This document shows positions 45,157 through 63,117 of a stretch of DNA of 64,000 bases, one piece after another. Positions within the stretch are counted from its first letter, which is position 1. Each line of letters begins with the position of its first letter. The stretch covers positions 576,001 to 640,000 of the forward strand of contig OY969585.1 in the NCBI GenBank assembly GCA_963701295.1, in the 5' to 3' direction. A program made the translations under genes and the position numbers. The DNA comes from Ignavibacteriota bacterium. Lineage in GTDB: Bacteria > Bacteroidota > Ignavibacteria > UBA10030. The notes under the pieces were generated by a model. The model searched no databases. It was given only the letters and a program-made list of their open reading frames with translations, and was not told the origin of the DNA.

Positions 45157-46686
45157 ATGATTTATTGTTTATCCGATCTTCTCTTCCAGCAACGCGACAA
45201 AAAAACATCGCACATAGCGCTCATCGATGGACAACACCGGCTCACTTACACAGAACTGATTCATCAGACAGAACGATTTGCAGCAATGTTACAAGCCCAG
45301 GGAGTACAACGAGGCGACCATATTGCTATTTACCTGCAGCGTTCCGTTGAATCTGTTGTTGCTCTTTTTGCTGTGTGGTCTCTTGGCGCCGTCGTTGTCA
45401 TTATCAATGATGTGCTGAAAAATCGGCAGGTCAACTACATTATCGATCATTCGGAAGCTTCCTTTCTCATAACCGACAATCGTCTTCGCACTTCGCTGAC
45501 TGAAGTTCCATTGAGCGCTAATCGCATTCTTACAGTGAACACTGAAAAACCAATCGACCAACAATTTACTCCCTCTCGTGTCATTGGTGCCGATCTTGCT
45601 CTCATCATTTACACGTCTGGATCTACCGGCATGCCCAAAGGAATCATGCTATCGCATAATAATCTCATTTCCGGCGCCTACATCATAACAGACTATCTTC
45701 ATCTCACACAAAACGAGATCATCATCAGCCTTCTGCCATTTAGTTTCGATTACGGGCTCAACCAATTGTTAACAGCATTGCTCGTCGGTGGGACATTGGT
45801 GATACAGCGATCTGTGTTGCCTGCCGATATCTGCAATACTCTGAATCGTGAGCAGGTCACAGGCATGGGAGCTGTGCCGATGATATGGCAGCAATTAGTT
45901 GGAAGCCGATCACCATTTATCAAATTGCAATTTCCACATCTCCGTTATATTACGAACACCGGCGGCCGTATGCCGGAGAGCATCACTAAACTTTTTCGGC
46001 AAGCTCATCCACACATCCAAATCTATTTAATGTTTGGTCTCACTGAAGCATTCCGTTCTACATATCTTCCTCCAGATCAAGTCGATGTTCGTCCGAGTTC
46101 TATTGGAAAAGCAATTCCAAATGTAGAACTCTTAGTACTCAATGAGCGGGGTGAACTGTGTAAGCCGGGTGAGGAGGGAGAACTTGTCCATCGCGGTGCA
46201 AACATCGCTATGGGATATTGGCGGGATCCTGAAAATACCGCCAAAAGATTCAGACCGGCTCCATTCCAACAAGGAAAAGGCGGACAACAAGAGATTGCCG
46301 TGTATTCCGGAGATTATGTAAAGACTGATGAAGAGGGATATTTGTATTTTATTGGTCGGAAAGATCAGATGATCAAATCGCACGGTATGAGGGTGAGTCC
46401 GGAAGAAATTGAAGATTGCATCTATGCATCACAGTTGGTAAAACACGCAGTAGCATTTGCAGTCCCCTTCGATGAAGTGAAAAACTCTATCGTTATAGCT
46501 CTTGTACCTTCTCATCCATTATCGTTTTCAGAAAAGGAATTGCATCTTTACTGCAAGATGCAAATGCCAGAATATATGCGGCCGGATATTATATGGACGA
46601 TTGAGCGGTTTCCCGAAACCTCCTCCGGAAAACCTGACCGCGTCCGCTTGCAGGAAATGTTCAAGGAACATAACCAAAAATCCTAA
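45157..46686 (+). CDS. AMP-dependent acyl/aminoacyl ligase (ANL superfamily; resembles EPS/exosortase-associated acyl-CoA ligases)
   Basis: YTSGSTGMPKG, LPFSFDYGLNQL, MFGLTEAFRST, SGD, GRKDQMIK, SGKPDR. Confidence 0.9.
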   Translation: MIYCLSDLLFQQRDKKTSHIALIDGQHRLTYTELIHQTERFAAMLQAQGVQRGDHIAIYLQRSVESVVALFAVWSLGAVVVIINDVLKNRQVNYIIDHSEASFLITDNRLRTSLTEVPLSANRILTVNTEKPIDQQFTPSRVIGADLALIIYTSGSTGMPKGIMLSHNNLISGAYIITDYLHLTQNEIIISLLPFSFDYGLNQLLTALLVGGTLVIQRSVLPADICNTLNREQVTGMGAVPMIWQQLVGSRSPFIKLQFPHLRYITNTGGRMPESITKLFRQAHPHIQIYLMFGLTEAFRSTYLPPDQVDVRPSSIGKAIPNVELLVLNERGELCKPGEEGELVHRGANIAMGYWRDPENTAKRFRPAPFQQGKGGQQEIAVYSGDYVKTDEEGYLYFIGRKDQMIKSHGMRVSPEEIEDCIYASQLVKHAVAFAVPFDEVKNSIVIALVPSHPLSFSEKELHLYCKMQMPEYMRPDIIWTIERFPETSSGKPDRVRLQEMFKEHNQKS

Positions 46687-46743
46687 AAGGGATCACCGGA
46701 ATAAAATTCCAAATACGTTTCTCGATATCTCAAGAAAAAAGAT

Positions 46744-47643
46744 ATGAGATCAGACCCACTCTACAGTATACTTTTGGATCGTCTGACCGCTTCATGGATA
46801 GCACAGCCGGATAAGCCAGAGGAAACCCCAGAATCAACCTTGAAGGCCCTCTGTTTTTTCGCTGCGGGCATTCCCGTTTCGGTCCAGAAAGCGTTACACG
46901 AGAATATACCGGAGTTGAACGATCATTCACGCAGACAACTTCAGAGTCTTGTTGAAAAACGTCTCGCTGGTTTACCACTTGCTCATATCACAGGACGGCA
47001 ACATTTTCTAGGAATGGAATTACTGGCAGGGCCTGAAGCCTTGATACCACGGATTGAGACTGAGATCCTCGGTCGTGCAGCACTTACGATTGCAAAATCC
47101 ATCGCAGATGCTCAGGGCGCTGTAACCGTTCTGGACGTATGCACCGGGTCTGGAAATGTTGCACTCGGAATCGCGTCAAACGAGTCCCGGTCGAGGGTGT
47201 TCGGGTCAGATCTTTCCGAAGAAGCGGTTGTGCTTGCGCGAAAGAATGCACGACATTTGAATTTGGATAACCGAGCCGAATTCAGGCAGAGTGATCTCTT
47301 TACTGCGTTTGAGTCGGACGAGTTTTATCGGAAGATGGATCTCGTGACTTGCAACCCTCCGTACATCCCATCGGCAAAGGTCGGCAGTATGAATCCAGAA
47401 ATCTCACAGCGCGAGCCTCGCATGGCTTTTGATGGAGGCTCACTTGGGATCACGATCCTCACACGAATGATCAGGGAATCTCCGAAATACCTCAAACCAA
47501 ATTCTTATCTTTGCTTCGAGGTTGGACTCGGGCAGGGGAAAGCTATGGAACAGAGACTCAAGAAGGAGAGCAGATACTGCAACATTCAGTCTTATGTCGA
47601 CGTTGCCAACCAGATACGGGCGTTGTCAGCGCAAGTCGCATAG
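46744..47643 (+). CDS. HemK/PrmC-family N5-glutamine-type methyltransferase with atypical N-terminus
   Basis: PLAHITG, LIPRIETE, LDVCTGSG, NPPY, EP..AFDGG; N-terminus PDKPEETPE. Confidence 0.88.
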   Translation: MRSDPLYSILLDRLTASWIAQPDKPEETPESTLKALCFFAAGIPVSVQKALHENIPELNDHSRRQLQSLVEKRLAGLPLAHITGRQHFLGMELLAGPEALIPRIETEILGRAALTIAKSIADAQGAVTVLDVCTGSGNVALGIASNESRSRVFGSDLSEEAVVLARKNARHLNLDNRAEFRQSDLFTAFESDEFYRKMDLVTCNPPYIPSAKVGSMNPEISQREPRMAFDGGSLGITILTRMIRESPKYLKPNSYLCFEVGLGQGKAMEQRLKKESRYCNIQSYVDVANQIRALSAQVA

Positions 47644-47921
47644 TCTAAATTATTGCCTCAATGTCGTAATATCATATCAATTCAGTCCACTAAGTTAATT
47701 GCTTCTTTCTATCAGTCTGCAAAAGTGTCCTATCTCTTGTTTAAATAGATAAACACTCTCAACATCCGATCAAATTCAAAACCATATCCTTGATTCTATG
47801 AGGGCTTTCATTATGATGATTCTGAGATGACAAAACAGAATCCCAGTTGATTGTTTATTGATTTATAGCGAAAGTTTGCTTAGGTTTTTAAAGTGTATCT
47901 CTGGACATATACATAAATCGA

Positions 47922-49001
47922 ATGGTAAGACTAGAAAAAAAGGATTTAGTTATATTTATTTTTTTGTGGCTTGGGATTGCTCTTTTCCTTACTCTTTGGC
48001 CATTCAATTTCTTGTGTAAAAACGTTGTTACTGCCACCCCAGGCGGGGGCTTTCATTTTGAGTCTCCCTCCATTGCATATCTTAGTCATCTCCCTATAAA
48101 AATTAGTGAACTGAAAAAGTTCTCTCTTATAATGGAAGTGAAATCAGATATTACATTAATTGACATCGACGGCATCATCTTTGGCAACTGCATTAACTAT
48201 GACAAACAGAATTTTCTCATGGTACAGGTGCGCGAAAATGTTGAATTTTTCATAAGCGCCAACGGTGTTTCTCGGGAAATCTTTGGAGAAGGGATTTTCG
48301 AGAAAGACAATCCTGTCTGGATTGAAATAACATATGATGGGAACAAGCTTACCTTCCTTAAGAACGGATCAGTAAAAAATGTGGTCACAATAGAAAATCT
48401 TGATTTTTCTCGCTGGAATAGTTCCTATCCATTCGTTTTCGCGAATGGAGGCGATGGTATGAACCCTTGGTCTGGTACGATCTTTTCATTTGACGTCTTC
48501 GATAGTGTTGTCACAATATCTGATCGTCAACATCTGGAAACGATAAGGAGGCAGGTAGCACCTCTTATAAGTTTGTCTGTGCAACAAGAACAAACGGGAC
48601 CATATCAATTACAAGGAAATATTTCTGCACCATCGGTCGTTATACCAGCGAGATTCAATCCTCCAGGAAAAAGTTTATTAATCAGCCTTTTAAATCTCAC
48701 TGAGTGGGGGCATATAGACTATATGGATTTTTTTCTCAATATTGTATTTTTTCTTCCATTCGGATTCCTCCTGCGGCTCCTTCTAGAAAAATATACCAAC
48801 CGTTATTACTTGAGCTTCTTCATCACAATCATGACTGGATTATTGCTTACAATAACGATCGAAACATTACAATCTTTTCTTCCCATTAGATATACCAGTA
48901 TTCTGGATGTTTTAAGTAATACTCTTGGCACTATTATAGGAGCAATGATTATTACATCTTCCTGGGTTCGACAATTATTAAATTTGCAAAGGCAAAAATA
49001 G
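47922..49001 (+). CDS. VanZ-family membrane protein with inserted LamG/ConA-like domain
   Basis: LTLWPF, then a soluble domain (ITYDG...WSGTI), then NIVFFLPFG, IETLQSFLPIRYTSILDVLSNTLG. Confidence 0.8.
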   Translation: MVRLEKKDLVIFIFLWLGIALFLTLWPFNFLCKNVVTATPGGGFHFESPSIAYLSHLPIKISELKKFSLIMEVKSDITLIDIDGIIFGNCINYDKQNFLMVQVRENVEFFISANGVSREIFGEGIFEKDNPVWIEITYDGNKLTFLKNGSVKNVVTIENLDFSRWNSSYPFVFANGGDGMNPWSGTIFSFDVFDSVVTISDRQHLETIRRQVAPLISLSVQQEQTGPYQLQGNISAPSVVIPARFNPPGKSLLISLLNLTEWGHIDYMDFFLNIVFFLPFGFLLRLLLEKYTNRYYLSFFITIMTGLLLTITIETLQSFLPIRYTSILDVLSNTLGTIIGAMIITSSWVRQLLNLQRQK

Positions 49002-49002
49002 T

Positions 49003-50022
49003 ATGAACAAGCCTCAAAATTGGCTAAAGATCGAGACAACTTCCGAAATAGAGAAGATTGTAAAAGTCATTTATCATCAAGTAAGGGCTATTCTTCGGAA
49101 GAAGGGTGCTATTATTGCTGCATCGGGCGGCATCGATAGTTCCGTTTGTGCTGCATTATGTACAAAAGCACTAGGAAAAGAAAATATACTTGTTCTCTCA
49201 TTGCCTGAGCGTGACTCGTCGCCTGATTCGATAAGACTTGGCCAACAACTTGCTGACGCGCTTGGAATCAAATTACAAATCGTAGATATTGCTCCCATTC
49301 TCAAAGGAGCTCAATGTTATGAGCTTCAACTCGAAGCAATACGCCGAGTATTTCCCGAATATGAAGAGGGCTGGAAGCATAAGGTCTCACTTCCATCTAT
49401 TCTTGAAAATGATCGTTTGAACCTCTCTTTCCTTACTGTTCAAAGCCCGACAGGGAATCTGAAATCAATCCGAATGCCTCTCTCAGTCTATCTTCAGCTC
49501 ATTGCTGCAACGAATTTGAAACAGCGAGCGCGGAAAATGACAGAGTATTCCTATGCAGATGGATTAAACTATGCTGTGTGCGGAACACCAAACCGCCTTG
49601 AATATGACCAGGGCTTCTTTGTAAAGCAGGGTGATGGAAGCGCTGATTTCAAGCCGATAGCTCACCTTTACAAAACACAGGTGTACCAGCTTGCGGAAGC
49701 ACTTGATATCCCAGAAGAAATCCGTAGACGCCCGCCAACCACAGATACATTTTCTCTCCCACAAACACAAGAAGAGTTTTATTTTTCTCTTCCCTACGGA
49801 CAAATGGATCTTTGCCTGTACGGATTCAACCACAACATCACGTCGGCTGAAGTAGCTCGTGCAACAAATCTTACCTCAGAACAAGTGGAGAGAGTTTATA
49901 AAGACATAGAGAAAAAACGTCGCGCGACAATAGCACTCCATCTTCCGCCTCTTCTGATCGATGGCGTTGATGAGATTAACGATTTCATTCAATCGACAGT
50001 CCGTCAATCAAAGGAAGTGTAA
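49003..50022 (+). CDS. nadE: NAD+ synthase (NadE)-like ATP pyrophosphatase, polysaccharide-locus subtype
   Basis: SGGIDS, NLKQRAR, GTPNRLEYDQGFFVKQGDG, PIAHLYKTQVY, PPTTD; central insertion. Confidence 0.85.
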   Translation: MNKPQNWLKIETTSEIEKIVKVIYHQVRAILRKKGAIIAASGGIDSSVCAALCTKALGKENILVLSLPERDSSPDSIRLGQQLADALGIKLQIVDIAPILKGAQCYELQLEAIRRVFPEYEEGWKHKVSLPSILENDRLNLSFLTVQSPTGNLKSIRMPLSVYLQLIAATNLKQRARKMTEYSYADGLNYAVCGTPNRLEYDQGFFVKQGDGSADFKPIAHLYKTQVYQLAEALDIPEEIRRRPPTTDTFSLPQTQEEFYFSLPYGQMDLCLYGFNHNITSAEVARATNLTSEQVERVYKDIEKKRRATIALHLPPLLIDGVDEINDFIQSTVRQSKEV

Positions 50023-50027
50023 TTTCG

Positions 50028-52064
50028 ATGTGCGGGATAGCCGGAATTGTCAATCTCTCTGACCATCAAAACCCACCAACTGTTGAATTGTTGCAGTCGA
50101 TGATCGGTGCTATTCGTCACCGTGGACCGGATGAGTATGGATTATATAGAGATAGGCATGCCGGTTTGGTCCATGCACGGCTATCAATTATCGACCTCCA
50201 GGCGGGTCAGCAACCCATGTCCAATGAAGATCACACCCTTTGGATTGTCTTCAATGGAGAAATTTTCAACTTCATTGAATTGAGAGCTGAGCTTGAAAAA
50301 TTAGGCCATTGCTTTCGAACCCATTCGGATACGGAAGTCATTCTCCATGCATTTGAATCTTGGGATATCGATTGTTTTTCCCGTTTCAACGGCCAATGGG
50401 CGCTTGCATTGTGGAACACGCAAACACGCAATCTTATATTATCTCGTGATCGAATCGGTGTGCGGCCATTATTTATTCACGAAACTCATGATCGTGTTCT
50501 CTTTGCCAGCGAAATGAAAGCGATATTTGCCGATCCTGCAGTTCCACGAGCTATCAATCCGCAAGGACTTGATCAGACGTTCACGTATTGGGCATCGATA
50601 GCTCCGGTAACGGTGTTTGAGGGAATCGATGAACTGCCTCCAGCTTCTATTCGAGTGTATGCACCCAGTGGTGAGAAGGAAGAAAAGTTGTATTGGAGAC
50701 CATCATACCCTGATGCGCCAAGAAGCTGGGAACACGGTTCTGTTTTCCCAACATTTGCCGCTGCTACGGAAATCCTGCGCGATAAATTAGAGCAGGCAAC
50801 AAAATTACGTATGCTGCGTTCGGATGTGCCGGTGGGAAGTTATTTATCTGGCGGATTAGATAGTTCTGTGGTTGCCCAGTTAGGCCGCAAGGCAAAAGAA
50901 GGTCGATTTGAAACGTTTTCCATTCGATTCGACGACACCGAATTCGATGAGACCGAATACCAAAGAACGATGGCTGCTACATTGAACAGCTCTCACAGAG
51001 AAATCATTGTAACAAGGAAAGATATCGCACAAGTTTTTCCTGACGTCATCTGGCATACAGAACGACCGATACTCAGAACAGCTCCTGCACCTTTATTTCT
51101 TCTTTCCAAATCTGTACGCGAAGCCGGAATAAAGGCGGTCTTGACGGGTGAAGGTGCTGATGAAATGTTAGCTGGATATGATATTTTTAGAGAAGCGAAG
51201 ATTCGTCAATTCTGGTCTCATCAGCCGAATTCGAAAGTCCGGCCTTTACTGTTTGACCGAATCTATCCATACCTTGCACGATCACCGCAGCGTGCAAGGG
51301 GAATGGCTTATGAATTCTGGAAAAAAGGACTCGAACACGCCAGCATACCAGGATTTTCCCACGAGCCGCGATGGTCAACTACATCATCACTGAAGAAATT
51401 CTTGTCTAAAGATTTTTTAGACTCTCTTCAAAACAATCCATCTCCTACTCCCCTGGATACTCTGCCCTCCAATTTTAGCCAATGGGATTCTCTCGCACAA
51501 GCACAATATCTTGAAATAACGACATTGCTTTCTTCATACTTGATTTCCTCACAGGGTGATCGTATGTTAATGGCTCATTCTGTCGAAGGCCGTTTTCCTT
51601 TTCTCGATGCCGACGTTATGCAATTCTGCAATGAACTTCCGGCAGAATACAAGCTCGCTTTTCTTGAAGAGAAACGCATCTTAAAAAAGGCGGCGGATGG
51701 ATTGATTCCAGAATCAATCATTCACCGCAAGAAACAGCCGTACCGTGCGCCGGATGCGGCAAGTTTTCTTAGTCGCGATACACCGGAGTATGTTCAAGAG
51801 ATGTTTTCGGACCGTAAACTCAAAGCAAACAGAGTTTTCAATCCACTAGCCGTTCGAGGTTTATACGAAAAATGCATTTCAAAGCGCGACCATGTTCGTG
51901 AACCCGGTTTATTCAGCAATACAGATAATATGGCGTTTGTGGGAATTTTATCTACTCAGCTTGTTGTTCAACAGTTTATCGAAACATCCGGACCAAGATA
52001 TGGAGCAGAAATTGAATTCAAAACATTTGTCGATTATACTCAACATCCATCACGAGCACACTAA
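50028..52064 (+). CDS. asnB: Asparagine synthase (glutamine-hydrolysing) family amidotransferase
   Basis: MCGIAG, HRGPD, RLSIID, FNGEIFN, LSGGLDSS, TGEGADE, EGRFPFLD. Confidence 0.93.
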   Translation: MCGIAGIVNLSDHQNPPTVELLQSMIGAIRHRGPDEYGLYRDRHAGLVHARLSIIDLQAGQQPMSNEDHTLWIVFNGEIFNFIELRAELEKLGHCFRTHSDTEVILHAFESWDIDCFSRFNGQWALALWNTQTRNLILSRDRIGVRPLFIHETHDRVLFASEMKAIFADPAVPRAINPQGLDQTFTYWASIAPVTVFEGIDELPPASIRVYAPSGEKEEKLYWRPSYPDAPRSWEHGSVFPTFAAATEILRDKLEQATKLRMLRSDVPVGSYLSGGLDSSVVAQLGRKAKEGRFETFSIRFDDTEFDETEYQRTMAATLNSSHREIIVTRKDIAQVFPDVIWHTERPILRTAPAPLFLLSKSVREAGIKAVLTGEGADEMLAGYDIFREAKIRQFWSHQPNSKVRPLLFDRIYPYLARSPQRARGMAYEFWKKGLEHASIPGFSHEPRWSTTSSLKKFLSKDFLDSLQNNPSPTPLDTLPSNFSQWDSLAQAQYLEITTLLSSYLISSQGDRMLMAHSVEGRFPFLDADVMQFCNELPAEYKLAFLEEKRILKKAADGLIPESIIHRKKQPYRAPDAASFLSRDTPEYVQEMFSDRKLKANRVFNPLAVRGLYEKCISKRDHVREPGLFSNTDNMAFVGILSTQLVVQQFIETSGPRYGAEIEFKTFVDYTQHPSRAH

Positions 52065-52075
52065 AGGATAATGTA

Positions 52076-52336
52076 ATGATTGATCAACAAAACATTCAGA
52101 AAACAGTAAGAGATTTTATCCAACAGAATTTTATTTTTGACCCGAATACGACACTCGCGGATGATGAATCACTCTTGGGAGCGGGAGTTATTGATTCAAC
52201 GGGTGTACTCGAACTTATAGGATATTTAGAGGATACATTCCAACTTCAATTTGGAGACGATGAACTCATCGCAGAGAATTTCGACACCATTTTAAAAATA
52301 ACTGCATTTTTACAGAAGAAGCTCGACAAACAATAA
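52076..52336 (+). CDS. Acyl/aminoacyl carrier protein
   Basis: 86 aa, acidic; GVIDSTGVLEL phosphopantetheine Ser motif; ENFDT. Confidence 0.9.
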   Translation: MIDQQNIQKTVRDFIQQNFIFDPNTTLADDESLLGAGVIDSTGVLELIGYLEDTFQLQFGDDELIAENFDTILKITAFLQKKLDKQ

Positions 52337-52661: not shown

Positions 52662-54662
52662 TTATGCAGCCACCTCGGCCGAATTGCGAATTCTTTCCCG
52701 AGCCTTGAGATCCTCAAGGTTCACGCGAAAGGATTCAGTCTCACGGTACTGAGGAACGATTTTATTCAGATACTGGTGAACAAGATCGGTCTTGCCAGCT
52801 CGGGCTACATTAACCAGCAAGTTAATATCGCGAATGAGCAACGACGATTCTTCACTGATAGTATTTCTGGAGTTTCTATAATCTTGAGCTTCCGTTGGGA
52901 GACTGTCGTCATTGCTGCAGACAAATATCTTTTCATGACTCGACCGCGTATGATTCTCCGTTGCATAGAACAGTTCTTCGTGCATCTTCTCGCCTTTCTG
53001 TAGACCGGTGAAGACGATGTCGACATCAGTTCCTTCACGTAACCCGCTGAGCCGAATAAGATCACGCGCAAGATCAACAATTTTTATTGGCTGTCCCATG
53101 TCAAGGACAAACGTCTCCCCACACTTTCCTAATGCTCCTGCTTGCAGCACAAGCTGCACAGCTTCAGGAATCGTCATAAAGAACCTTGTCACATCTGGAT
53201 GTGTTATTGTCACCGGCCCACCAGCGCGAATCTGCTTCTCTAAGATAGGCACAATACTCCCTCTGCTCCCAAGGACATTGCCAAACCGTACCACAACAAA
53301 TGCCTTGCGATGGTTTACCGCAGCATTATGGACAACCAACTCGGCAATACGCTTCGTTACTCCCATGACGCTTGTCGGATTGACTGCCTTGTCCGATGAA
53401 ATCATGACAAACTTTTCTACTCCATAGCGAGTTGCGAGTTCAACAAGGGTCTGCGTGCCTAAAACGTTATTGGTCACAGCATCGAGACAATTCTTTTCCA
53501 TCAACCCTACATGTTTATGGGCAGCTGCGTGAAAAATGATTTGCGGCTGAGATTCCTCCATGACATGAGCCATTCGATCACGATCTCTGATATCTGCAAT
53601 CACTGTTTTAAATGAAATCGTCTGACCAACCACACCATGTTTGGTCTTAATCTCATTCGCGATCTGGAAAATCGAATTCTCTCCGTGACCCAGCATAATG
53701 AGCTCTTTCGGATGGAAATTGATAATCTGACGGCAGAGTTCGCTTCCGATGGATCCACCAGCTCCCGTAACCATCACCCGCATCCCTTGGATGAGATTCC
53801 ATAAATTTATTTCGTTGATTTCGATGGTTCCACGCCGGAGCAGGTCATTGATTTGAACCTCGCGTAATTGTGCAACAGCGGATCCAGAAATAATTTCAAA
53901 AACACCAGGGATTGTTTTACTTGTCACCTTCAGCGTTTGGCACATCTGAACAACGCTATTGATCGTTTTTCCGGAAGCCGTCGGCATTGCAATAATGATT
54001 TCATCAATCCTATTTTCTTTCACAATGTCGGGAATATGTTCAAGCGTTCCCACCACTTGAACACCGTGTATGTTTACATTCTGTTTGACTGGATCATCAT
54101 CAACAAACGCGATAGGCTTCAAGCCTAGTTGCGGATTTGTCCTAAGTTCTTTGACGATCATCGATCCAGCAATACCGGCACCGACAATGAGAACATTTTT
54201 GTTTTTAAGTCCTGTGCCAATCCGTTCGTTGAAGACATAGACAAGTCTGAACATAACCCGTACGCCGCCAATCATCAGTATCGTCAGCAAACCATCGATA
54301 AAAGGTATCGACAGAGGAAAACCCGGCGCAAGGAAACCGAATGGTTTTAAGATTCCAAAGAATACGATAATGCACAAGAGCCATGATGCCATGGTTGCAA
54401 TAAACAATATAGCGACTTCATCCACACTGGCATACACCCAGTAACGGTTATAAAATTTGCAAAGTTGAAACACGCTTAACTTGAGAACGAGCGATACCAG
54501 TGTGTAGATGATCAATGACTTGCCAACAAATACCACAGCATGGACCGTCTCGTATCTCAAAATTAAAGACAGCATAGGGATGATGGAAAGAATGATAATA
54601 TCGAGCACAAAAAGATGCCGATTCTGTGCCTTTAGGATGATAGTAAAGAAACGCTTACTCAT
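52662..54662 (-). CDS. Membrane-bound UDP-sugar 4,6-dehydratase (CapD/PglF/WbpM family)
   Basis: 4 TM segments; VLIVGAG, VTGAGGSIGSELCRQ, FHAAAHKHV, SSDKAVNP, VRFGNVLGSRGS, GEKMHEEL. Confidence 0.95.
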   Translation of the reverse strand: MSKRFFTIILKAQNRHLFVLDIIILSIIPMLSLILRYETVHAVVFVGKSLIIYTLVSLVLKLSVFQLCKFYNRYWVYASVDEVAILFIATMASWLLCIIVFFGILKPFGFLAPGFPLSIPFIDGLLTILMIGGVRVMFRLVYVFNERIGTGLKNKNVLIVGAGIAGSMIVKELRTNPQLGLKPIAFVDDDPVKQNVNIHGVQVVGTLEHIPDIVKENRIDEIIIAMPTASGKTINSVVQMCQTLKVTSKTIPGVFEIISGSAVAQLREVQINDLLRRGTIEINEINLWNLIQGMRVMVTGAGGSIGSELCRQIINFHPKELIMLGHGENSIFQIANEIKTKHGVVGQTISFKTVIADIRDRDRMAHVMEESQPQIIFHAAAHKHVGLMEKNCLDAVTNNVLGTQTLVELATRYGVEKFVMISSDKAVNPTSVMGVTKRIAELVVHNAAVNHRKAFVVVRFGNVLGSRGSIVPILEKQIRAGGPVTITHPDVTRFFMTIPEAVQLVLQAGALGKCGETFVLDMGQPIKIVDLARDLIRLSGLREGTDVDIVFTGLQKGEKMHEELFYATENHTRSSHEKIFVCSNDDSLPTEAQDYRNSRNTISEESSLLIRDINLLVNVARAGKTDLVHQYLNKIVPQYRETESFRVNLEDLKARERIRNSAEVAA

Positions 54663-55376
54663 TGGATTTAGAATCCCCTCTTGTACATATAGAAAGTTGT
54701 AAGTTTCTTCAGCATAGTTTCTTGTAACGCAACTAATTAGTGGTCAGATTACCTTTTTTGCCTTGAATAAGTATATTAAGTTTCGAAGAAGGTTGCTAAT
54801 TAGAATTCTCTAATGCTTATTAGAACTCATTAATAAAAAAACTATAAAAACCTGTAACTACTCACCATGCTTTTCATGGATATGATGGTAAACAATGAGT
54901 TCAGTCATTCCCAGTCCGTCCGCCATGCCGCTGTACAACATGCCGGAAAATAGCAGGAACGCACATGGGAACAACAGAGAGAAATAAATACAGATTCTTA
55001 AAATTATTTCTGATTACCATTGGCTTGAAAAAACAATAATGTATTCAATGGACGCAGAACAGTGCTGTTACAAACTGTCCTCATCGTCTTTTTTTTATTT
55101 GCACAACTTTAGAAGGTAACTCTTTATTCGATACTTGGTAAAATGGTATTAAATAAAAATTTAAAAAAATGTGACCTATATCATACCGTAGAAATGCCAA
55201 TAAATATGTTATCAATAGAACAATTGACCGAATTGTTGATACAAAGAATAAGTTTGCATGATATAGTGTTCTATTCATGAATCATACCATTCTTTAACAG
55301 AACACCGGTTCTCAAATCATGGTTCCAGGATTCTGACTCAATATAAGACCGATGAAAAATATCAACAGGGAATGTT

Positions 55377-56519
55377 CTATACTCCGACACAGACTTTTCG
55401 AACAACATCAGCAACACGGTGCAGGTCGCTTGTTGTCATTGCTGATCCACTCGGGAGACAGAGCCCTTCTGCAAAGAGCTTTTCTGTAACAGCACCTCCT
55501 CGTATGCGGCAAGAATGAAATACAGGCTGAAGGTGCATCGGCTTCCAGAGCGGGCGCGATTCAATATTTTCTTTTTCGAGTGCAAGCCGGATATCCTCTC
55601 TTGAAGCTCTTGAGTGTGAAGGATCGACAGTGATGCATGTAAGCCAATAATTAGGCTCACCATACGATGCAATAGGCATGAATTTCATTCCAGCAACATC
55701 CGCGAAGGCTTCTCGGTAGAAACGATTAATTTCTTTCCGGCGGGCAATTTTCTTATCAAGGTTTTCCAATTGGCCTCGGCCAATTGCAGCAAGAATATTG
55801 CTCAGACGATAATTATAACCAATAGAAGAGTGTTGGTAATGCGGGGCCGGATCACGCGCTTGTGTCGCTAAAAACCGCGCATGGTCCACATATACTTTGT
55901 TGGCAGACACGAGCATTCCACCGCCGCTTGTCGTAATGATTTTATTCCCGTTAAATGAGAAAACACCCATGACGCCAAATGAACCGGCAGATTTTCCCTT
56001 GTATGTTGTACCAAGCGCTTCCGCCGCATCCTCAATGATTGGCACTCCATACTCTGCACAAATCTTGAGAATAGGGTCATAATCCGCCGACTGGCCGTAG
56101 AGGTCGACAACGATTAACGCGCGTGGAAGTTTTCCTTTTTTGCTGCATACGCGGAGTTCTTCTTCGAGTAAAAGTGGATCCAGGTTCCATGTGGTTGTAT
56201 TGCTGTCGATGAATACCGGAGAGGCGCCACAGTAGGCTATAGGATTTGCCGACGCGGAAAATGTAAACGTCGAGCAGAGCACTTCGTCACCTTGTTGGAC
56301 ACCAAGATTGATAAGTGCCAAGTGAAGAGCCGATGTTCCGCTTGCTAAAGCGGCAGCATGAGGAACACCAACCCGTGCACAAATATCGTGCTCAAATGCA
56401 TCCACTTGCGGTCCGAGTGTCGTTATCCAGTTCGATTCAAATGCTTGGAGGAGAAGCTCACGTTCCCTTCCATCGAGGTGAGGCGGAGAAAGATAAATAC
56501 GGTTCGTTTTCAAATCCAT
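55377..56519 (-). CDS. DegT/DnrJ/EryC1/StrS aminotransferase (PglE/EpsN-like)
   Basis: IYLSPPH, SGTSALHLAL, EDAAEALG, SFNGNKIITTSGGG, GYNYRLSN, RPLWKPMH. Confidence 0.95.
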   Translation of the reverse strand: MDLKTNRIYLSPPHLDGRERELLLQAFESNWITTLGPQVDAFEHDICARVGVPHAAALASGTSALHLALINLGVQQGDEVLCSTFTFSASANPIAYCGASPVFIDSNTTTWNLDPLLLEEELRVCSKKGKLPRALIVVDLYGQSADYDPILKICAEYGVPIIEDAAEALGTTYKGKSAGSFGVMGVFSFNGNKIITTSGGGMLVSANKVYVDHARFLATQARDPAPHYQHSSIGYNYRLSNILAAIGRGQLENLDKKIARRKEINRFYREAFADVAGMKFMPIASYGEPNYWLTCITVDPSHSRASREDIRLALEKENIESRPLWKPMHLQPVFHSCRIRGGAVTEKLFAEGLCLPSGSAMTTSDLHRVADVVRKVCVGV

Positions 56520-56750
56520 GATTCCTTCAATGATGATATACAGTGTTTATAAATCGTCCTCTTGATAATCCAGAATTTACGCTGGACGTTCAGCGTTCAC
56601 GACTATTGACGCGCCCCAATTCCCTTAATATTCTTGCATTAGGAAGTTGATATGCGGAATATAATTTATGAAGACGAACCAATTCCTTCGCATCGGGAAT
56701 CCTTGTTAGTCTCAGATTTATATTTGCATCTGATTGCTCTGGGCCGCATC

Positions 56751-57638
56751 CTAAGTAGTATGAATCCCAGTTATGCCCGTGGTTTGGTTCTTTGTAAGTC
56801 CAGCCAGCATTTCGCTCAACAGCCATAACTTCTCGGCGATCGCTACATCGTACGACTCGCTGGAAGAGCGAATTGCTTTGCAATCGTAAAAATATTTGCC
56901 TATCATACCTTCCACATCCGGAGATGCGGCAAGATAAACGATTGTTTTCGCACCATCTTCTGGACTGATCAACTCCCGTTTCACTAGATTACGTAATTTT
57001 GTTTTCAGCCAACTATTGTTGCTGCCAAAGTTTGTTGCGACGATTCCCGGGTGAAGCGCATTGGCAGTGACATGTGTGCCTTCCAAACGCCGGGCAAGAG
57101 CATAGGTAAAAAGAAGATTCGCAAGTTTCGATTGCGCGTACGCCTGAATGCGGTTATAGCTCCGCTCCGACTGCAGGTCTTCGAAGTTGATACTCCCTTG
57201 CTCATGCGCGGCAGAAGAAACCATTACAATTCTTGCTGAGGTGCTCGCCTTCAACTTATCGAGAAGCAGGTGGGTAAGCAAAAAGCAGCTCATATGATTG
57301 AGGGCAAACGTCATTTCGAGGCTGTCCACACTGACAGTTCGCTTCGCAAAAATAGCGCCTGCATTGTTGATGAGTACATCAAGGTGGGAATAGCGGTTCA
57401 CAAACTCCCCGGCAAGCTGTCGAACCTGCTTTTGAGACGAAAGATCTGCTTGGAGAAAGTCTACTCGCGCATCTGGAACAGAGCGCCGGATCTTTTCAAC
57501 CTGACGCACACATTTTCCGGCGTTGCGTCCCACAATAATTACGGCAGCTCCGAGGTGTGACAACTGCCGTGCAGCCGCCGCACCTATGCCTGAGGTACCA
57601 CCGGTAATCAAGCAAATCTTATCGGTTGTATTTTTCAT
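56751..57638 (-). CDS. Short-chain dehydrogenase/reductase (retinol-DH-like)
   Basis: TGGTSGIG, INNAG, YAQSK (YxxxK), ALHPG. Confidence 0.92.
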   Translation of the reverse strand: MKNTTDKICLITGGTSGIGAAAARQLSHLGAAVIIVGRNAGKCVRQVEKIRRSVPDARVDFLQADLSSQKQVRQLAGEFVNRYSHLDVLINNAGAIFAKRTVSVDSLEMTFALNHMSCFLLTHLLLDKLKASTSARIVMVSSAAHEQGSINFEDLQSERSYNRIQAYAQSKLANLLFTYALARRLEGTHVTANALHPGIVATNFGSNNSWLKTKLRNLVKRELISPEDGAKTIVYLAASPDVEGMIGKYFYDCKAIRSSSESYDVAIAEKLWLLSEMLAGLTKNQTTGITGIHTT

Positions 57639-57720
57639 CTATCCTTAATACGATACCGATATTGCCATGCCGGAAGAGTTCTTTTTCCCGGTTACGCGTT
57701 ATTCGATAAGAGAGATCGTA

Positions 57721-59193
57721 TCACTTCATCAATTGCATTCTCTTGATATCGGTTTGCGTGGGTGTCGTCAACTTATAGAAATATATTCCGCTTGCACATC
57801 CCGATGCATCAAAGTTCATTTCGTAATTCTTCTGGGCTTCAGCAACTCCATCGAATAATGTTTTCACTTGCTGTCCTAACAAATTATAGACGACCAACTT
57901 TGCCTGTTCTGTCTTGGAGAGAGAAAACGAAATTTTCGTGCTCGGATTAAATGGATTTGGAAAATTTTGAACGAGTCCAAGAGCCGCTGGTGCCGACTTC
58001 ACTTCCAATTCTACATTCGCTGAGTACTTATACGCACCATCGTTATCAATTTGTTTCAGGCGATATACATAACTGCCGGAACTCAGTTTCGAATCGATAA
58101 ACGAGTATGCTTTCGGCGCATTGCTTGTGCCTGAGCCCTTCACAAATCCAATTTTCACCCAACTGTTCACCGCCATTCTCTCCACTTCAAACCCATAGTT
58201 ATTCACTTCCGTTGCCGTTTGCCAGTTAAGCGTAATATTATTTCCAATTGCTTGTGCTGTAAAAGATGTTAATTCTACCGGAAGCGGTGTACCGCTTGGA
58301 TTTTGCCATGCTAAATAAGGATATCCGTCATTAAATCCTGCATCCATATACCAAGTACTTGGAGACCATCCTGCACCAAGGAAAATGGAATTGGTTTTCA
58401 TATCAGCCGTCAATTCGCCCGTACCACCATGAGTGTCTGACCGCCCTGAAGTCGTTTCATCATAGAAACAATTAGTAATGAAAACGGCATTACCTGCATT
58501 TCCCGAAAAACCGCCAACGGAGGCATCAACTAATACAACAACAGCCCCCGTGCTGTAGCAATTTGAAATAACAGGAGCACTATAAGTTCCATCGATATAT
58601 CCCACAAAGCCGCCAACATTCCCATTACCAGTAACAGCGGCCCTACTATAGCAATTTGAAATGATGTCGGTAGACGTATAACTTCCTATAACGCCTCCGA
58701 CATGACTTCCGCCTGTAACACTGCCTGTGGTGTAGCAGTTAGAAATGGTACAACCACCTAATGCTGAATATCCTACCAAACCACCAACATCATAACTACC
58801 TGCAATATTGACTCCTTCCACACCAAGATTTTTGATTTCAGCTCCGATAATACTGCCGAATAATCCTTGATAGTCTGCAGTGTTGTTAATCATTAAATTT
58901 ATAATTTTCTTGCCGTTACCGTTAAATTTTCCAGTGAAACTGTAGCTGCTGGAGCCATCACCAGAAATCGCCGGCCAGCCAGTACCAGAATTATACGGGG
59001 ATACATTCAAATCAATGTCATTGTTAAGGATAAAATAAGAGGAATAATAATTATGCACTTGAGCTAATTGTGCGGCAGTCGCGATTTGATATGGGGTGCT
59101 TGATGTTCCATCTCCTCCGGCAAATTGCGCTACGAGATTTTGCGTAGACAATAAAAACATCATAACAATGAGTGGTTTTAAAATATTTTTCAT
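57721..59193 (-). CDS. T9SS-sorted GLUG-repeat surface protein
   Basis: GGDGT..PYQI, FNGNG, repeated VGGLVG / VGGVIG / VGGFVG with ISNCY; PLPVELTSF domain; NFPNPFNP CTD. Confidence 0.88.
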   Translation of the reverse strand: MKNILKPLIVMMFLLSTQNLVAQFAGGDGTSSTPYQIATAAQLAQVHNYYSSYFILNNDIDLNVSPYNSGTGWPAISGDGSSSYSFTGKFNGNGKKIINLMINNTADYQGLFGSIIGAEIKNLGVEGVNIAGSYDVGGLVGYSALGGCTISNCYTTGSVTGGSHVGGVIGSYTSTDIISNCYSRAAVTGNGNVGGFVGYIDGTYSAPVISNCYSTGAVVVLVDASVGGFSGNAGNAVFITNCFYDETTSGRSDTHGGTGELTADMKTNSIFLGAGWSPSTWYMDAGFNDGYPYLAWQNPSGTPLPVELTSFTAQAIGNNITLNWQTATEVNNYGFEVERMAVNSWVKIGFVKGSGTSNAPKAYSFIDSKLSSGSYVYRLKQIDNDGAYKYSANVELEVKSAPAALGLVQNFPNPFNPSTKISFSLSKTEQAKLVVYNLLGQQVKTLFDGVAEAQKNYEMNFDASGCASGIYFYKLTTPTQTDIKRMQLMK

Positions 59194-59401
59194 GATGATA
59201 CCTCCATTGAATATTTTTTATTTCCACAAACAGTGGTTTAGTTATTTTCTTTTATTTGTCTTGAGCAAGATAATACATAGTTCAAATTCATTCTTCAACA
59301 CAGCAAAAAGAGCGCTGCTGAGAGAGAGTAACCCTTTGTTGTTTCCTGAAGGATATGCATCCCCACGGCGTTATTTTAATATAAGCATAAATACACACAT
59401 G

Positions 59402-60070
59402 TTACATGTCTCGAGTATCCGGGCTGCGCCGAGTAGTTTGTTCGGGCACAGGAATTGCAGGAACACCCACAACCGTCTTAAACGGAAGGACATCACGAAT
59501 GACCGCTGCCCCGGCACCGATAATAGCCCAATTGCCTATCATTCTATTGTGAATAACGGCACTCCCAATTCCAACGAACGCTCCTTTTCCCACTTTCACT
59601 CCTCCTCCGAGATGCACTCCGGGACAGATGTGAGCATGGGATTCGATCACAGAGTCATGATCGACCGTCGCACCTGTGTTTATAATGACATTGGAACCGA
59701 TTTGCGCGCCGCTGTTCACGACCACACCGGCGAACAAGACACTCCCATCTCCGACCACAACACTTGCTGCAACAGTAGCGCGGGGGTGGATCACGGATAT
59801 CACATTTTCGCCTTGTTTCTTCAAATCCATGTAGATATTCTGTCTGGTTAAATTATCTCCTATCCCTACGACCACTCCGTCATGCTCAAACTTCTCTATA
59901 TCGGAAATTCTTCCCAGGATTCGTATGCCGAGCTGTTTCTGATCCAGAAGTTTTCTATCATCGTCAAGAAACCCGACGACTTCATTCTTTTCGCCAAGCT
60001 GGTTACGGCTAATGAATGCATCAGCCACAACTCTCGCATGGCCTCCTGCACCTATGATCAGCACTTTCAT
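59402..60070 (-). CDS. Sugar N/O-acetyltransferase (PglD/NeuD family)
   Basis: IIGAGGHA, GFLDD, IHP, hexapeptide repeats, VDHD, VGVPA. Confidence 0.92.
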   Translation of the reverse strand: MKVLIIGAGGHARVVADAFISRNQLGEKNEVVGFLDDDRKLLDQKQLGIRILGRISDIEKFEHDGVVVGIGDNLTRQNIYMDLKKQGENVISVIHPRATVAASVVVGDGSVLFAGVVVNSGAQIGSNVIINTGATVDHDSVIESHAHICPGVHLGGGVKVGKGAFVGIGSAVIHNRMIGNWAIIGAGAAVIRDVLPFKTVVGVPAIPVPEQTTRRSPDTRDM

Positions 60071-60094
60071 CGTTTCATCCTTTCTTCTTCGCTG

Positions 60095-61225
60095 TTATGA
60101 CAACGAATTATGTTTTTCTTTTGATTCTCCGTGTTGAATTAAGATACCGGCAACTTGCCTCATGTCATTGCCATCATATCTTGCATCGCAGGCAATCGAA
60201 AGCATTCTTTTGCTCAACGAAATATCTTCGGCAGGTACTCCCTGAATTCTGGGAGAATCCAAGGGCCAGAGGACAGCAGGATAAATCCTCGACTGTATAA
60301 GCTTATGTCTCATGTACCGAGTTATTTCTTGAGAATGAAATATCAAAATCACAGAGTATGGAGAAACGCCGTTTTGAAATTTATGCTGAATGAATTTGAT
60401 CCAAGGAATCCCAGCTACAGATTCAGCCAGAATCTTGTAATTCTTGCTTCTGATGCTACGCCATCTATCAACCGGCGCTATTTTCAGAAAGCTTTCCACC
60501 CAAGGTGAGGCACCGGAAACTTGGCCCAAGGAAATATTCTGCTCTGCATGCATAGATAACTTTCGAAAAAGCATTTTACTATCAAAACCGCCTTCAAGGA
60601 AGCAGCTCTTCATGGCTAAAGCCGTGTGCTTTTGTATCGCAGCAAGATAATGTTCGTCAGTCAGCGGAGGAGACTTTGGAAGTCTTTTTCTGCGCGGCGA
60701 CCAGAGCACACCGCCATCCGGTACCGGAATCGTTTTACGCAATGACGCTACACACCAATCCGCCCGGCTGTGAAGAGCCCAATCAGAAAGCACATCATGC
60801 GAATGGTCTTCTATCACTTCCACAGTACCTGCAGCTTCGACATGATTTTGAGCACTTGGTTTAAACCCAAAAAAGTTGACAATAAAAGCAACGTCCCCCT
60901 TTTTGAAACGATCAAGCGGCAGAATCCCGGCGTTCCAGGGGTTCGATTGATACGTCAACACTTGAATGCCTGTGGTTACAATACTCCCAACAACTTCCTG
61001 GCAAAAATAGCTTGGTATCCAGAGGCGTTTCCATCCTTTTGATTGCATGCCTTGGAAGAGAAGGCAACGAAGAGCATCCCTCCCTGACCCAAAATATTGT
61101 GCATTGCTCCCCCATGGGCTCTCGAACCCTATTCCCGGGACAAGTTTCTTGGTCCAGCATAAATCTGAACCGACTTCCCATCGGTCTCTTATGTTCTTCT
61201 CTATTCCTCGGATACGAATCCCCAT
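60095..61225 (-). CDS. Divergent PLP-dependent (DegT-like fold) protein
   Basis: SGRDAL, PSYFC, VNFFG, IEDHSH, ASLRKTIPVPDGG, DARY. Confidence 0.65.
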   Translation of the reverse strand: MGIRIRGIEKNIRDRWEVGSDLCWTKKLVPGIGFESPWGSNAQYFGSGRDALRCLLFQGMQSKGWKRLWIPSYFCQEVVGSIVTTGIQVLTYQSNPWNAGILPLDRFKKGDVAFIVNFFGFKPSAQNHVEAAGTVEVIEDHSHDVLSDWALHSRADWCVASLRKTIPVPDGGVLWSPRRKRLPKSPPLTDEHYLAAIQKHTALAMKSCFLEGGFDSKMLFRKLSMHAEQNISLGQVSGASPWVESFLKIAPVDRWRSIRSKNYKILAESVAGIPWIKFIQHKFQNGVSPYSVILIFHSQEITRYMRHKLIQSRIYPAVLWPLDSPRIQGVPAEDISLSKRMLSIACDARYDGNDMRQVAGILIQHGESKEKHNSLS

Positions 61226-61249
61226 CGAATATTTATTCCAAATATGAAT

Positions 61250-62350
61250 TTAAGACTGAAGTGGCTTTTCAGAGTTATCTGTTACAGCTGACCTGTATAA
61301 TGGAAAATACATATGATTATCCTTACTCATTAGCGGCGCTGTTTCCCCAAATCTTTCACGAACGAGTGAGTCATACACAAGAGGCTGAACAATTAACTGC
61401 CATGTCATAAATTGATTGCGCGCTTTTGAAAAACCAGATTTGAAATGAAAGAGGGAATCCTGCGCACCTCCGACACCGCCCCCGAGGTGTAAAACTCGAG
61501 CACCCATAGAGACACCCCACTGACGAATCGAATTAAAAAGGAGCTTAACCGGAGCCATAGGAAGAAATTCATTGGGAGTTGCAGCGAGATGAATTTCAAT
61601 TATCCCGTTACATATCGTTATGAGTCCACCGGAGACCAATCTGCCTTGATACTCGCAGAAGCAAAGGAAAAGAAGATCGCCGAGTGAGCGTTTCAACCCA
61701 TGAAAATACGATTTGTCAAACTTGTAAAATGTATCAGCTCCAACACGCTGCATTGTTTCGAGGTACATATCGATGAACGCATCGTAGTGCTCCCACTGTG
61801 TATCCATGAAGGAGGTCATTCCTATCGCCTGTAGATGTTGAATATCCGATCTGTGATTCCTTCTGTAGGCAGACCATTGGTCCTTCTCGGGCAACGTAAG
61901 ATCGATTGAAACAGTCTCTCCTATTTGCCGACAGACGCCAAAATCCGATACCAATGACGCATTAGCAAGGAACGGATGAAGACGTGAAAAGACACTTACA
62001 AGACGTAAATTCATGAAAGCATCCATGAGTGTAGCATGAAAGTTCTTTAGTACTTCATCTGGTACCGGGAGACTTGAGCTCACCGGGCCGATATAACCAT
62101 AGGCAGATGTAGCATCAAACCAATCAAGTCCATCGTTATTCTCTTGGGATGATCGATTGATTTTCCGGATCAGCAATGGGAGGGCGATTGTATAGTCATC
62201 TTCAGAATAGACAAAGAGCATCGCTTTCCCTTCACATCTATCTTCAGCAAGCTTATGATATGAGTGAAGATGGAAAACGTCGAAGGCCTCTATAGATTCA
62301 AGAACCTGAAACCATTCTTTTTTATCGCTCGTTGTAAGGATGCGTAGCAT
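61250..62350 (-). CDS. GNAT / FemAB-like acyltransferase
   Basis: DATSAYGYIGP, FSRLHP, IDLT, YLETMQRVGA, LHLGGG, FKSGFS. Confidence 0.85.
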   Translation of the reverse strand: MLRILTTSDKKEWFQVLESIEAFDVFHLHSYHKLAEDRCEGKAMLFVYSEDDYTIALPLLIRKINRSSQENNDGLDWFDATSAYGYIGPVSSSLPVPDEVLKNFHATLMDAFMNLRLVSVFSRLHPFLANASLVSDFGVCRQIGETVSIDLTLPEKDQWSAYRRNHRSDIQHLQAIGMTSFMDTQWEHYDAFIDMYLETMQRVGADTFYKFDKSYFHGLKRSLGDLLFLCFCEYQGRLVSGGLITICNGIIEIHLAATPNEFLPMAPVKLLFNSIRQWGVSMGARVLHLGGGVGGAQDSLFHFKSGFSKARNQFMTWQLIVQPLVYDSLVRERFGETAPLMSKDNHMYFPLYRSAVTDNSEKPLQS

Positions 62351-62378
62351 TGTGTCTCATCTTAGAAATAGTATTACG

Positions 62379-63047: not shown

Positions 63048-63117
63048 TGAATATACTATGATAGTTGTGATAGTGTTAAATCGGTTTCATACATTTTTTG
63101 TCTGACTGCTCTGAGTA

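What the first reader, a model, noticed from the sequence alone, without database searches (positions are those of the whole stretch)
45157..52336. Carrier-protein-dependent amide/methyl tailoring module (ligase, HemK-like, VanZ-LamG, NadE-like, AsnB, ACP) facing a surface-polysaccharide locus
Seen: six co-oriented genes. The last four are separated by only 1-11 bp, and the cluster converges on a PglF/E/D/C-type glycan operon. Established: ANL ligases load acids onto ACPs, NadE and AsnB both adenylate a carboxylate and convert it to an amide, and HemK/PrmC methylates an amide nitrogen using NPPY. Inference: these are repurposed housekeeping paralogues that together form a small assembly line. 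It would load a small acid or amino acid on the ACP, amidate or condense it twice, N-methylate it and deliver it to the glycan, loosely analogous to Dlt but with different chemistry. I know of no biochemical characterisation of this combination. It is the best candidate for an undescribed system in the window.
Basis: partly seen in the sequence, partly recalled or inferred. Interest (0 to 1): 0.8.

Follow-up and report, generated by a model that had tools for sequence, protein, structure and literature searches.

The report
Carrier-protein cassette with repurposed HemK methylase
Six genes beside a surface-sugar locus are a version of a widespread bacterial gene set of unknown product, here with an extra copy of a translation-factor methylase from a separate family branch that likely methylates a small amide built on a carrier protein before it would be attached to the sugar polymer.

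Summary
The six genes and their spacing are real. Ligase, ACP, AsnB and NadE-like form a widespread core (70, 69 and 65 of 80 NadE-like loci carry AsnB, ligase and ACP) whose counterpart lies on Sinorhizobium meliloti pSymB. There the ligase was shown to acylate the ACP; I found no product reported. The genome has separate housekeeping nadE, prmC and acpP. The HemK-like gene belongs to its own clade. It lies beside cassette genes in 21 of 43 loci (PrmC 0 of 37). It occurs fused to the ligase, to GNAT-like and hexapeptide acyltransferases and after an NRPS carrier domain, and it travels only with VinN-like (Arg331) ligases (16 of 16). Its predicted complex with the ACP gets weak support (0.49; controls 0.00). 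Best reading: an acidic amino acid is loaded on the ACP, amidated, N-methylated and passed to the polysaccharide; substrate, order and acceptor are inferred. VanZ-LamG is a variable insert (2 of 5 genus copies). The Dlt analogy lacks an MBOAT, and no transferase was identified here. This scan noted the core repeatedly on other DNA and a HemK version once. S. meliloti 1021 carries the five enzyme and carrier genes, so the idea is testable.

The parts
45157..46686 (+). ANL adenylating ligase, TIGR03098-like (FDYG / TNTGGRM / MFGLTEAFR); predicted acidic amino acid:ACP ligase
   Evidence: best match of the substrate-binding segment in PDB is VinN; D198, M292 and R300 align to VinN D230, M323 and R331; K330 is replaced by F299
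46744..47643 (+). HemK/PrmC paralogue of a separate clade (CNPPY, DKPEE N-terminal motif); predicted N-methyltransferase for a carrier-bound amide
47922..49001 (+). VanZ-family membrane protein with a probable LamG-like domain; variable insert, not core
49003..50022 (+). NadE-like PP-loop amide synthetase (NF002048 subfamily) with a conserved insertion of about 55 residues; second copy besides the housekeeping NadE
50028..52064 (+). AsnB-type glutamine amidotransferase with N-terminal MCG and SGGLDS intact
52076..52336 (+). Specialised acyl carrier protein, Ser41 invariant (GxIDSTG)
   Evidence: housekeeping ACP elsewhere
52662..63771 (-). Distal end of a Wzx/Wzy-type surface-polysaccharide locus (PglF-, PglE/DegT-, PglD/NeuD x2, divergent DegT-like, FemAB-like GNAT, PglC-type); inferred acceptor pathway

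Best explanation
The ligase, ACP, AsnB, NadE-like enzyme and HemK paralogue form a conserved gene cassette separate from the housekeeping copies, and it likely works as a small assembly line that builds an N-methylated amide of an acidic amino acid on the carrier protein, which would then be attached to the neighbouring surface polysaccharide. Step 1 (shown for the S. meliloti counterpart that the ligase acylates the ACP; substrate inferred): the ligase adenylates an aspartate-like acid through its side-chain carboxyl, as VinN does, and loads it on Ser41-phosphopantetheine. Step 2 (inferred): AsnB converts the free carboxylate of the tethered acid to a carboxamide using glutamine. Step 3 (inferred): the NadE-like enzyme makes a second amide, either on a uronic-acid nucleotide sugar or joining the aminoacyl unit to it. 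Step 4 (inferred; supported by fusions and a weak complex prediction): the HemK paralogue methylates the carboxamide nitrogen while the unit is on the ACP, the chemistry PrmC uses on glutamine. Step 5 (weakest): an acyltransferase moves the unit to the repeat unit. Elsewhere a GNAT travels with the cassette; here the candidates are the FemAB-like GNAT or the PglD-type enzymes of the facing operon. VanZ-LamG is a passenger.
For: Separate housekeeping nadE (NF010587 344 bits, over cut-off), prmC (TIGR03534 282 bits) and ACP. AsnB 70, ligase 69, ACP 65 and HemK-like 16 of 80 NadE-like loci across many phyla. The same 5 of 16 genus genomes carry both HemK paralogue and NadE-like, in the same gene order. 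HemK paralogues form one clade apart from PrmC (SH-aLRT 100 on a quick tree; 42 of 62 rows beside cassette genes versus 0 of 38); 21 of 43 versus 0 of 37 metagenome loci. All 14 longer relatives found are fusions: ligase (2, plus locus L104), GNAT-like (9), hexapeptide acyltransferase (2), and terminal to a carrier domain in an NRPS module (1). HemK loci hold xKR/AFR ligases in 16 of 16 versus 19 of 45 others. VinN is the best PDB match of the ligase pocket segment. ACP-HemK prediction: score 0.49, best control 0.00, weak support; that mark was reached by 116 of 157 solved pairs and 2 of 215 mismatches, but at 0.60 or under by only 18 of 157 and by both mismatches; runs agree in at least 90% of contacts, partner pLDDT at least 83. 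SMb20650 acylates SMb20651 in vivo and is not a long-chain acyl-CoA ligase (PMC7232532 passages). Glycan genes near 30 of 80 NadE-like loci versus 1 of 37 prmC loci.
Against: No substrate, product or acceptor is shown by any search. The window's ligase lacks the VinN Lys330 equivalent and has GG for AA, so aspartate is less sure here than for the TECKR ligases. The cassette's usual GNAT was not found in this genome, nor an MBOAT, nor a TIGR03099 decarboxylase over cut-off. 50 of 80 NadE-like loci and 38 of 43 HemK-paralogue loci showed no glycan gene with my limited query panel (many contigs are short). One of four genus relatives (G312) has no glycan gene in the stretch fetched. 20 of 62 paralogue rows have no cassette gene in their locus, among them an 8-row subclade with a CysE-like acyltransferase gene beside it in at least five loci. 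HemK is absent from 64 of 80 loci, so it is optional. The paralogue still passes the PrmC cut-off and its closest fold is PrmC. Kin inflate all counts.
Confidence: 0.45

Rival explanations
1. Same cassette, but amidation and methylation happen on the sugar and not on the carrier: AsnB and NadE-like amidate uronic acids of a nucleotide sugar or repeat unit, HemK methylates that amide, and ligase plus ACP supply an independent aminoacyl group.
For: The facing locus has a UDP-sugar dehydrogenase and an epimerase-like ORF. HemK is also fused to or beside acyltransferases that act on sugars. AsnB-type amidation of O-antigen uronic acids is established knowledge (recalled).
Against: It does not explain why HemK tracks one ligase pocket type (16 of 16), is fused to the ligase and follows an NRPS carrier domain; weak ACP-HemK support.
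Confidence: 0.22
2. The carrier-bound, amidated and methylated unit is real but ends up in a small metabolite, an aminolipid or a protein modification, and the glycan locus is only a frequent neighbour.
For: Most loci showed no glycan gene in my panel; G312 and the Sorangium loci lack them nearby. The ACP's best NCBIfam hits, all below cut-off, are lipid and natural-product ACPs. One HemK sits in an NRPS.
Against: 30 of 70 loci of 10 kb or more have glycan genes versus 0 of 16 controls. In S. meliloti the HemK-like gene and two GNAT-like genes sit among annotated polysaccharide genes. pglF abuts the cassette in 4 of 5 genus copies.
Confidence: 0.17
3. The HemK paralogue still methylates a protein glutamine, either release factors or the GKGGQ loop of the adjacent ligase, as a regulatory modification.
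For: It passes TIGR03534 and has the PrmC fold, TM 0.78. The window's ligase has a release-factor-like GKGGQ loop, with GGQ in 39 of 43 close relatives.
Against: GGQ is absent from that loop in all 77 more distant ligases, 6 of them with the same longest-contig length as a HemK paralogue, and from the TECKR ligases beside or fused to HemK. Many paralogues are about 230 aa and lack most of the N-terminal domain. A higher-scoring PrmC exists in this genome and in 5 of 5 other carriers checked.
Confidence: 0.1
4. These are redundant housekeeping copies (NAD synthase, asparagine synthase, PrmC) gathered by chance.
For: Automatic annotation names them so; no other full-length asnB was found in the genome.
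Against: Cross-phylum linkage, a family-specific insertion in the NadE-like protein, patchy presence in the family and fusions.
Confidence: 0.03

Closest known systems
S. meliloti 1021 pSymB operon with ligase SMb20650 and ACP SMb20651 (Ramos-Vega et al. 2009, seen only as cited in PMC7232532 and PMC5686131 passages)
   Same: pSymB (NC_003078.1) encodes AsnB (47%), ACP (42%), ligase (35%) and NadE-like (56%) in a row, and a HemK-clade gene (40%, CNPPY) 12 kb away among polysaccharide genes. The ligase acylates the ACP in vivo. Matching these ORFs to the SMb tags rests on the paper's description and on recall, as the record is unannotated.
   Different: The window's ligase is the TEAFR/TIGR03098 type, not TECKR; its HemK is the long DKPEE form and sits inside the cassette; the GNAT beside the rhizobial HemK was not found here; VanZ-LamG is inserted. 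No product is reported in the passages read.
VinN/VinL/VinO beta-amino-acid starter pathway (vicenistatin)
   Same: Stand-alone adenylation enzyme plus ACP; pocket motifs align (D230, M323, R331 kept).
   Different: K330 is lost in this copy; no decarboxylase over cut-off; no PKS in the cluster; amidotransferases and a methylase follow instead.
PrmC/HemK N5-glutamine methyltransferase
   Same: Fold, NPPY and SAM motifs, over the TIGR03534 cut-off.
   Different: Separate clade with CNPPY and a different or missing N-domain; accessory copy; fused to biosynthetic enzymes.
OxyD-type amidotransferase (malonamate starter of oxytetracycline)
   Same: An amidotransferase that supplies an amide-bearing starter unit (PMC7749508 passages); its AsnB homology and action on a carrier-bound acid are recalled.
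   Different: Polyketide context; no NadE-like or HemK partner; no sequence comparison made here.
XrtA/PEP-CTERM EPS accessory genes (TIGR03098, TIGR03099, TIGR03108)
   Same: The ligase is just under the TIGR03098 cut-off; glycan context.
   Different: AsnB is far below TIGR03108 (403.7 versus 816.9) and no TIGR03099 member passes cut-off.
Dlt D-alanylation system
   Same: Ligase plus dedicated carrier beside a surface-polymer pathway.
   Different: DltA cut-off not met (193 versus 559.85); no MBOAT found in the genome.

Membership tests
S. meliloti SMb20650/SMb20651-type cassette | Adjacent AsnB, ACP, ANL ligase and NF002048 NadE-like genes | tested here: met
S. meliloti SMb20650/SMb20651-type cassette | TECKR-type ligase and accompanying GNAT | tested here: not met
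   TEAFR ligase; GNAT not found by protein or profile
S. meliloti SMb20650/SMb20651-type cassette | Ligase acylates the cognate ACP | not testable with these tools
   shown only for the rhizobial pair
PrmC release-factor methyltransferase | TIGR03534 cut-off, NPPY motif, PrmC fold | tested here: met
PrmC release-factor methyltransferase | Groups with housekeeping PrmC and is the genome's PrmC | tested here: not met
   separate clade; higher-scoring copy elsewhere
PrmC release-factor methyltransferase | Methylates the GGQ glutamine of RF1/RF2 | not testable with these tools
   needs an assay
NH3-dependent NAD+ synthetase NadE | PP-loop SGGxDS and NadE core motifs | tested here: met
NH3-dependent NAD+ synthetase NadE | Housekeeping equivalog NF010587 and no large insertion | tested here: not met
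   168.5 versus cut-off 255; insertion of about 55 aa; the other copy scores 344
AsnB glutamine-hydrolysing amidotransferase | TIGR01536 cut-off, N-terminal Cys, PP-loop | tested here: met
VinN-type beta-amino-acid adenylation enzyme | D230, M323, K330, R331 pocket | tested here: inconclusive
   three kept, K330 replaced by Phe
XrtA-associated ligase/decarboxylase/amidotransferase set | TIGR03098, TIGR03099 and TIGR03108 over cut-off | tested here: not met
XrtA-associated ligase/decarboxylase/amidotransferase set | Exosortase A in the genome | not tested
   no search run
Dlt system | DltA equivalog and an MBOAT (DltB) | tested here: not met

The most novel reading that the evidence does not exclude
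A whole clade of PrmC/HemK, routinely annotated as release-factor methyltransferase, has been repurposed as a carrier-protein-dependent amide N-methyltransferase. It is the stand-alone counterpart of an NRPS methylation domain, and with a VinN-like ligase, an ACP, AsnB and a NadE paralogue it installs an undescribed N-methyl-amide aminoacyl substituent on surface polysaccharides across many phyla, S. meliloti 1021 included.
Probability: 0.35. Interest if true: 0.75.

Novelty: new variant of a known kind. Interest (0 to 1): 0.55.

Why it matters
The HemK clade gives a sharp handle: it predicts an amide nitrogen on the carrier-bound intermediate and a +14 Da step that intact-mass spectrometry can see. 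If right, it adds a glycan-decorating chemistry and a new substrate class for PrmC-fold enzymes. S. meliloti 1021 carries ligase, ACP, AsnB, NadE-like and HemK-clade genes, so the test needs no uncultured organism.

Tried and rejected
GGQ loop of the ligase as the general HemK substrate: rejected, confined to the close clade. VanZ-LamG as a core part: rejected. Dlt-type export: no MBOAT found. VinO/TIGR03099-type decarboxylation: three weak matches, none over cut-off. Search for the cassette's GNAT in this genome: nothing by single protein or by two home-made profiles. Class-wide searches found the HemK paralogue and the ligase only in this genome among 301. The promoter/terminator scan was at about chance level (21 versus 16.9 +/- 3.7; 10 versus 7.2 +/- 2.6), so whether the 278 bp gap splits the operon is open. 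Literature: ten searches listed no paper on this combination or on a HemK paralogue in it; the library lacks most subscription journals. The VinN structure paper and one review were not held; the 2009 SMb20651 paper was not looked up and is known only from citations; PMC1569441 had none of my terms. No supplements were read. The careful tree did not finish; the quick tree is reported.
Full report
Observation. The six ORFs exist at the stated coordinates on the + strand, with gaps of 57, 278, 1, 5 and 11 bp. NCBIfam and Pfam give an AMP-binding ligase closest to TIGR03098 (567.7 bits, cut-off 592.35), a PrmC-family methyltransferase (TIGR03534 207.2, cut-off 199.1), a protein with a C-terminal VanZ domain, an NF002048-subfamily NAD synthase-like protein, a TIGR01536 AsnB and an ACP. 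The LamG label is backed only by an Atlas feature score of 0.93. The facing - strand genes are PglF-, PglE/DegT-, PglD- and PglC-type. They are the end of a polysaccharide locus that continues about 30 kb past the window. The genome is 3.64 Mb and 42% GC; the best NadE-like hits are from Ignavibacteria/Bacteroidota.

Paralogues, not housekeeping genes. The genome has a second nadE (G000 192824-193669; NF010587 344 bits, over cut-off), a second prmC (2579408-2580325; TIGR03534 282 bits, 34% identical over 211 aa) and another ACP. An alignment of 100 NadE-like proteins shows intact SGGxDS, NxKQR and GTPN motifs and an insertion of about 55 residues that the housekeeping copy lacks; 78 AsnB proteins keep the N-terminal MCG and SGGLDS. 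No other full-length AsnB was found in the genome.

The core is widespread and already on record. By blastp, 70 of 80 hold AsnB, 69 an ANL ligase, 65 an ACP, 16 a HemK-like gene and 1 a VanZ-LamG relative. S. meliloti 1021 pSymB has AsnB, ACP, ligase and NadE-like in a row at 47, 42, 35 and 56% identity. Passages of PMC7232532 state that SMb20650 is co-transcribed with the ACP SMb20651, acylates it in vivo, and does not replace FadD; a passage of PMC5686131 says the function of SMb20651 needs further study. The 1021 record is unannotated, so the match of tags to these ORFs is inferred. Earlier notes of this scan describe the core on other DNA (seven of the eight listed) and one HemK-containing version; they are leads, not support.

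The HemK gene is the distinctive part. In the family, 5 of 86 genomes have it, all among the 16 of this genus; the same five have the NadE-like gene, which occurs in 9 of 86. The four relatives keep the order ligase-HemK-NadE-AsnB-ACP; VanZ-LamG is present in one of them and pglF abuts the ACP in three. A metagenome scan kept 80 of 560 relatives; I split them by identity into 43 paralogues and 37 ordinary PrmC. Cassette genes lie in 21 of 43 versus 0 of 37 loci, and in 11 of 15 versus 0 of 22 for loci of 5 kb or more. A quick maximum-likelihood tree of 100 rows (matches under 170 aa left out) puts all paralogues in one clade (SH-aLRT 100; 42 rows with cassette genes, 20 without) apart from 38 PrmC rows. 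The clade almost always has CNPPY where PrmC mostly has SNPPY. One branch has the DKPEE N-domain; the other is often about 230 aa and lacks most of the N-domain, and 5 of 5 such genomes checked also hold a higher-scoring PrmC over cut-off. An 8-row subclade lacks the cassette; five of its loci have a CysE-like acyltransferase gene beside HemK.

Fusions point to carrier-linked biosynthesis. A search for longer relatives returned 14 proteins, all fusions: 2 ligase-HemK (68% identical to each other; locus L104 holds a further in-frame copy), 9 HemK plus a GNAT-like domain (weak Pfam hits on one of the four scanned; homologues lie beside NadE-like genes in L067 and L095), 2 hexapeptide acyltransferase-HemK, and 1 NRPS module with condensation, partial adenylation and two carrier domains ending in HemK. 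In the 80 NadE-like loci, all 16 with HemK have a ligase with the xKR or AFR motif, against 19 of 45 without; 19 loci with no ligase or no readable motif were left out. Fisher's p of 2e-5 overstates because of kin. An AlphaFold model (pLDDT 92) matches PrmC best (TM 0.78); further hits are titled PsiM, AerE and a carbamoyl N-methyltransferase, so related folds include small-molecule and amide N-methylases. The ACP-HemK-SAM prediction scored 0.49 against 0.00 for the best of three controls: weak support. The mark was reached by 116 of 157 solved pairs and 2 of 215 mismatches, but at 0.60 or under by only 18 of 157 and by both mismatches. The runs agree in at least 90% of contacts and the partner's pLDDT is at least 83.

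What the ligase loads. The pocket segments of both a TECKR ligase and the window's ligase match VinN best in the PDB (E 1e-21 and 3e-10). A passage of PMC9484153 names M323, K330 and R331 in VinN's recognition of 3-methylaspartate; that K330 and R331 bind the free carboxylate is recalled, since the structure paper was not held. TECKR ligases keep D, M, K and R. The window's ligase keeps D198, M292 and R300 but has Phe for Lys and GG for AA. An acidic amino acid linked through its side chain is therefore likely, but its identity here is open. Such loading leaves one free carboxylate, which AsnB could amidate and HemK could then methylate; this order is inferred.

Evidence against and gaps. Glycan genes were detected near 30 of 80 NadE-like loci versus 1 of 37 prmC loci (30 of 70 versus 0 of 16 at 10 kb or more), but near only 5 of 43 HemK-paralogue loci (1 of 9 at 10 kb or more). 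The panel is a lower bound, as it missed a flippase-family gene in L104. In S. meliloti the HemK-clade gene lies 12 kb from the core, between GNAT-like genes and polysaccharide genes that include a VanZ-family gene (annotation of strain ml21; same layout in 1021). In this genome I found no MBOAT, no cassette-type GNAT and no TIGR03099 decarboxylase over cut-off, so the transfer step has no identified enzyme; the FemAB-like GNAT at 61250-62350 and the two PglD-type enzymes are candidates only. The ligase's GKGGQ loop resembles the release-factor motif, but GGQ occurs in 39 of 43 close and 0 of 77 distant ligases and not in the TECKR ligases beside HemK.

Novelty and verdict. Ten literature searches listed no paper on this combination; I saw listings and selected passages only, and the library lacks most subscription journals. 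The core is a known but unsolved operon type. The HemK clade, its fusions and its link to one ligase type were not found in print by those searches. I rate it a new variant of a known kind, interest 0.55, with about 45% confidence in the carrier-bound amidation and N-methylation model with a glycan acceptor.

Noticed in passing
window 42778-44770 (-): MjaI-family restriction endonuclease with an N6/N4 DNA methylase carrying a C-terminal SNase-like domain, directly upstream of the cassette; not seen at this position in the four genus relatives.
   Followed up: partly
window 56751-59193 (-): An SDR oxidoreductase and a GLUG-repeat protein with a Por secretion tail interrupt the Pgl-type gene run.
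   Followed up: no
window 60095-62350 (-): A divergent DegT-like protein with no Pfam or NCBIfam hit (Atlas 0.99 to DegT-named clusters) beside a FemAB-like GNAT; a relative of the first lies downstream of a HemK paralogue in L121.
   Followed up: partly
L001 11429-16575 (-) (G000 647429-652575): Inside the polysaccharide locus: a TupA-like ATP-grasp, an AlaDH/PNT-family enzyme and two ORFs without Pfam hits that carry PP-loop-like motifs (LSCGIDS, FSGGVDS), suggesting further amide or carboxyethyl decorations.
   Followed up: no
P0254: A 1370-aa NRPS-like protein: carrier, condensation, partial adenylation, carrier, then a HemK-clade domain where a release domain usually sits.
   Followed up: partly
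L093, L101-L103, L105, L106, L118, L125: A HemK-paralogue subclade without the cassette; in L093 and L101 it lies downstream of molybdopterin-synthesis-like genes, in five loci beside a CysE-like hexapeptide gene, and the two are fused in P0241 and P0246.
   Followed up: partly
L009 7714-8544 and 11 other NadE-like loci; L174 1086-1919: A GDSL/SGNH-like protein with a probable signal peptide recurs beside the ACP in 12 of 80 loci; a possible periplasmic transfer step in those versions.
   Followed up: partly
L188 7523-9447: The asnB of S. meliloti ml21 pSymB aligns in two frames, so it appears frameshifted.
   Followed up: no
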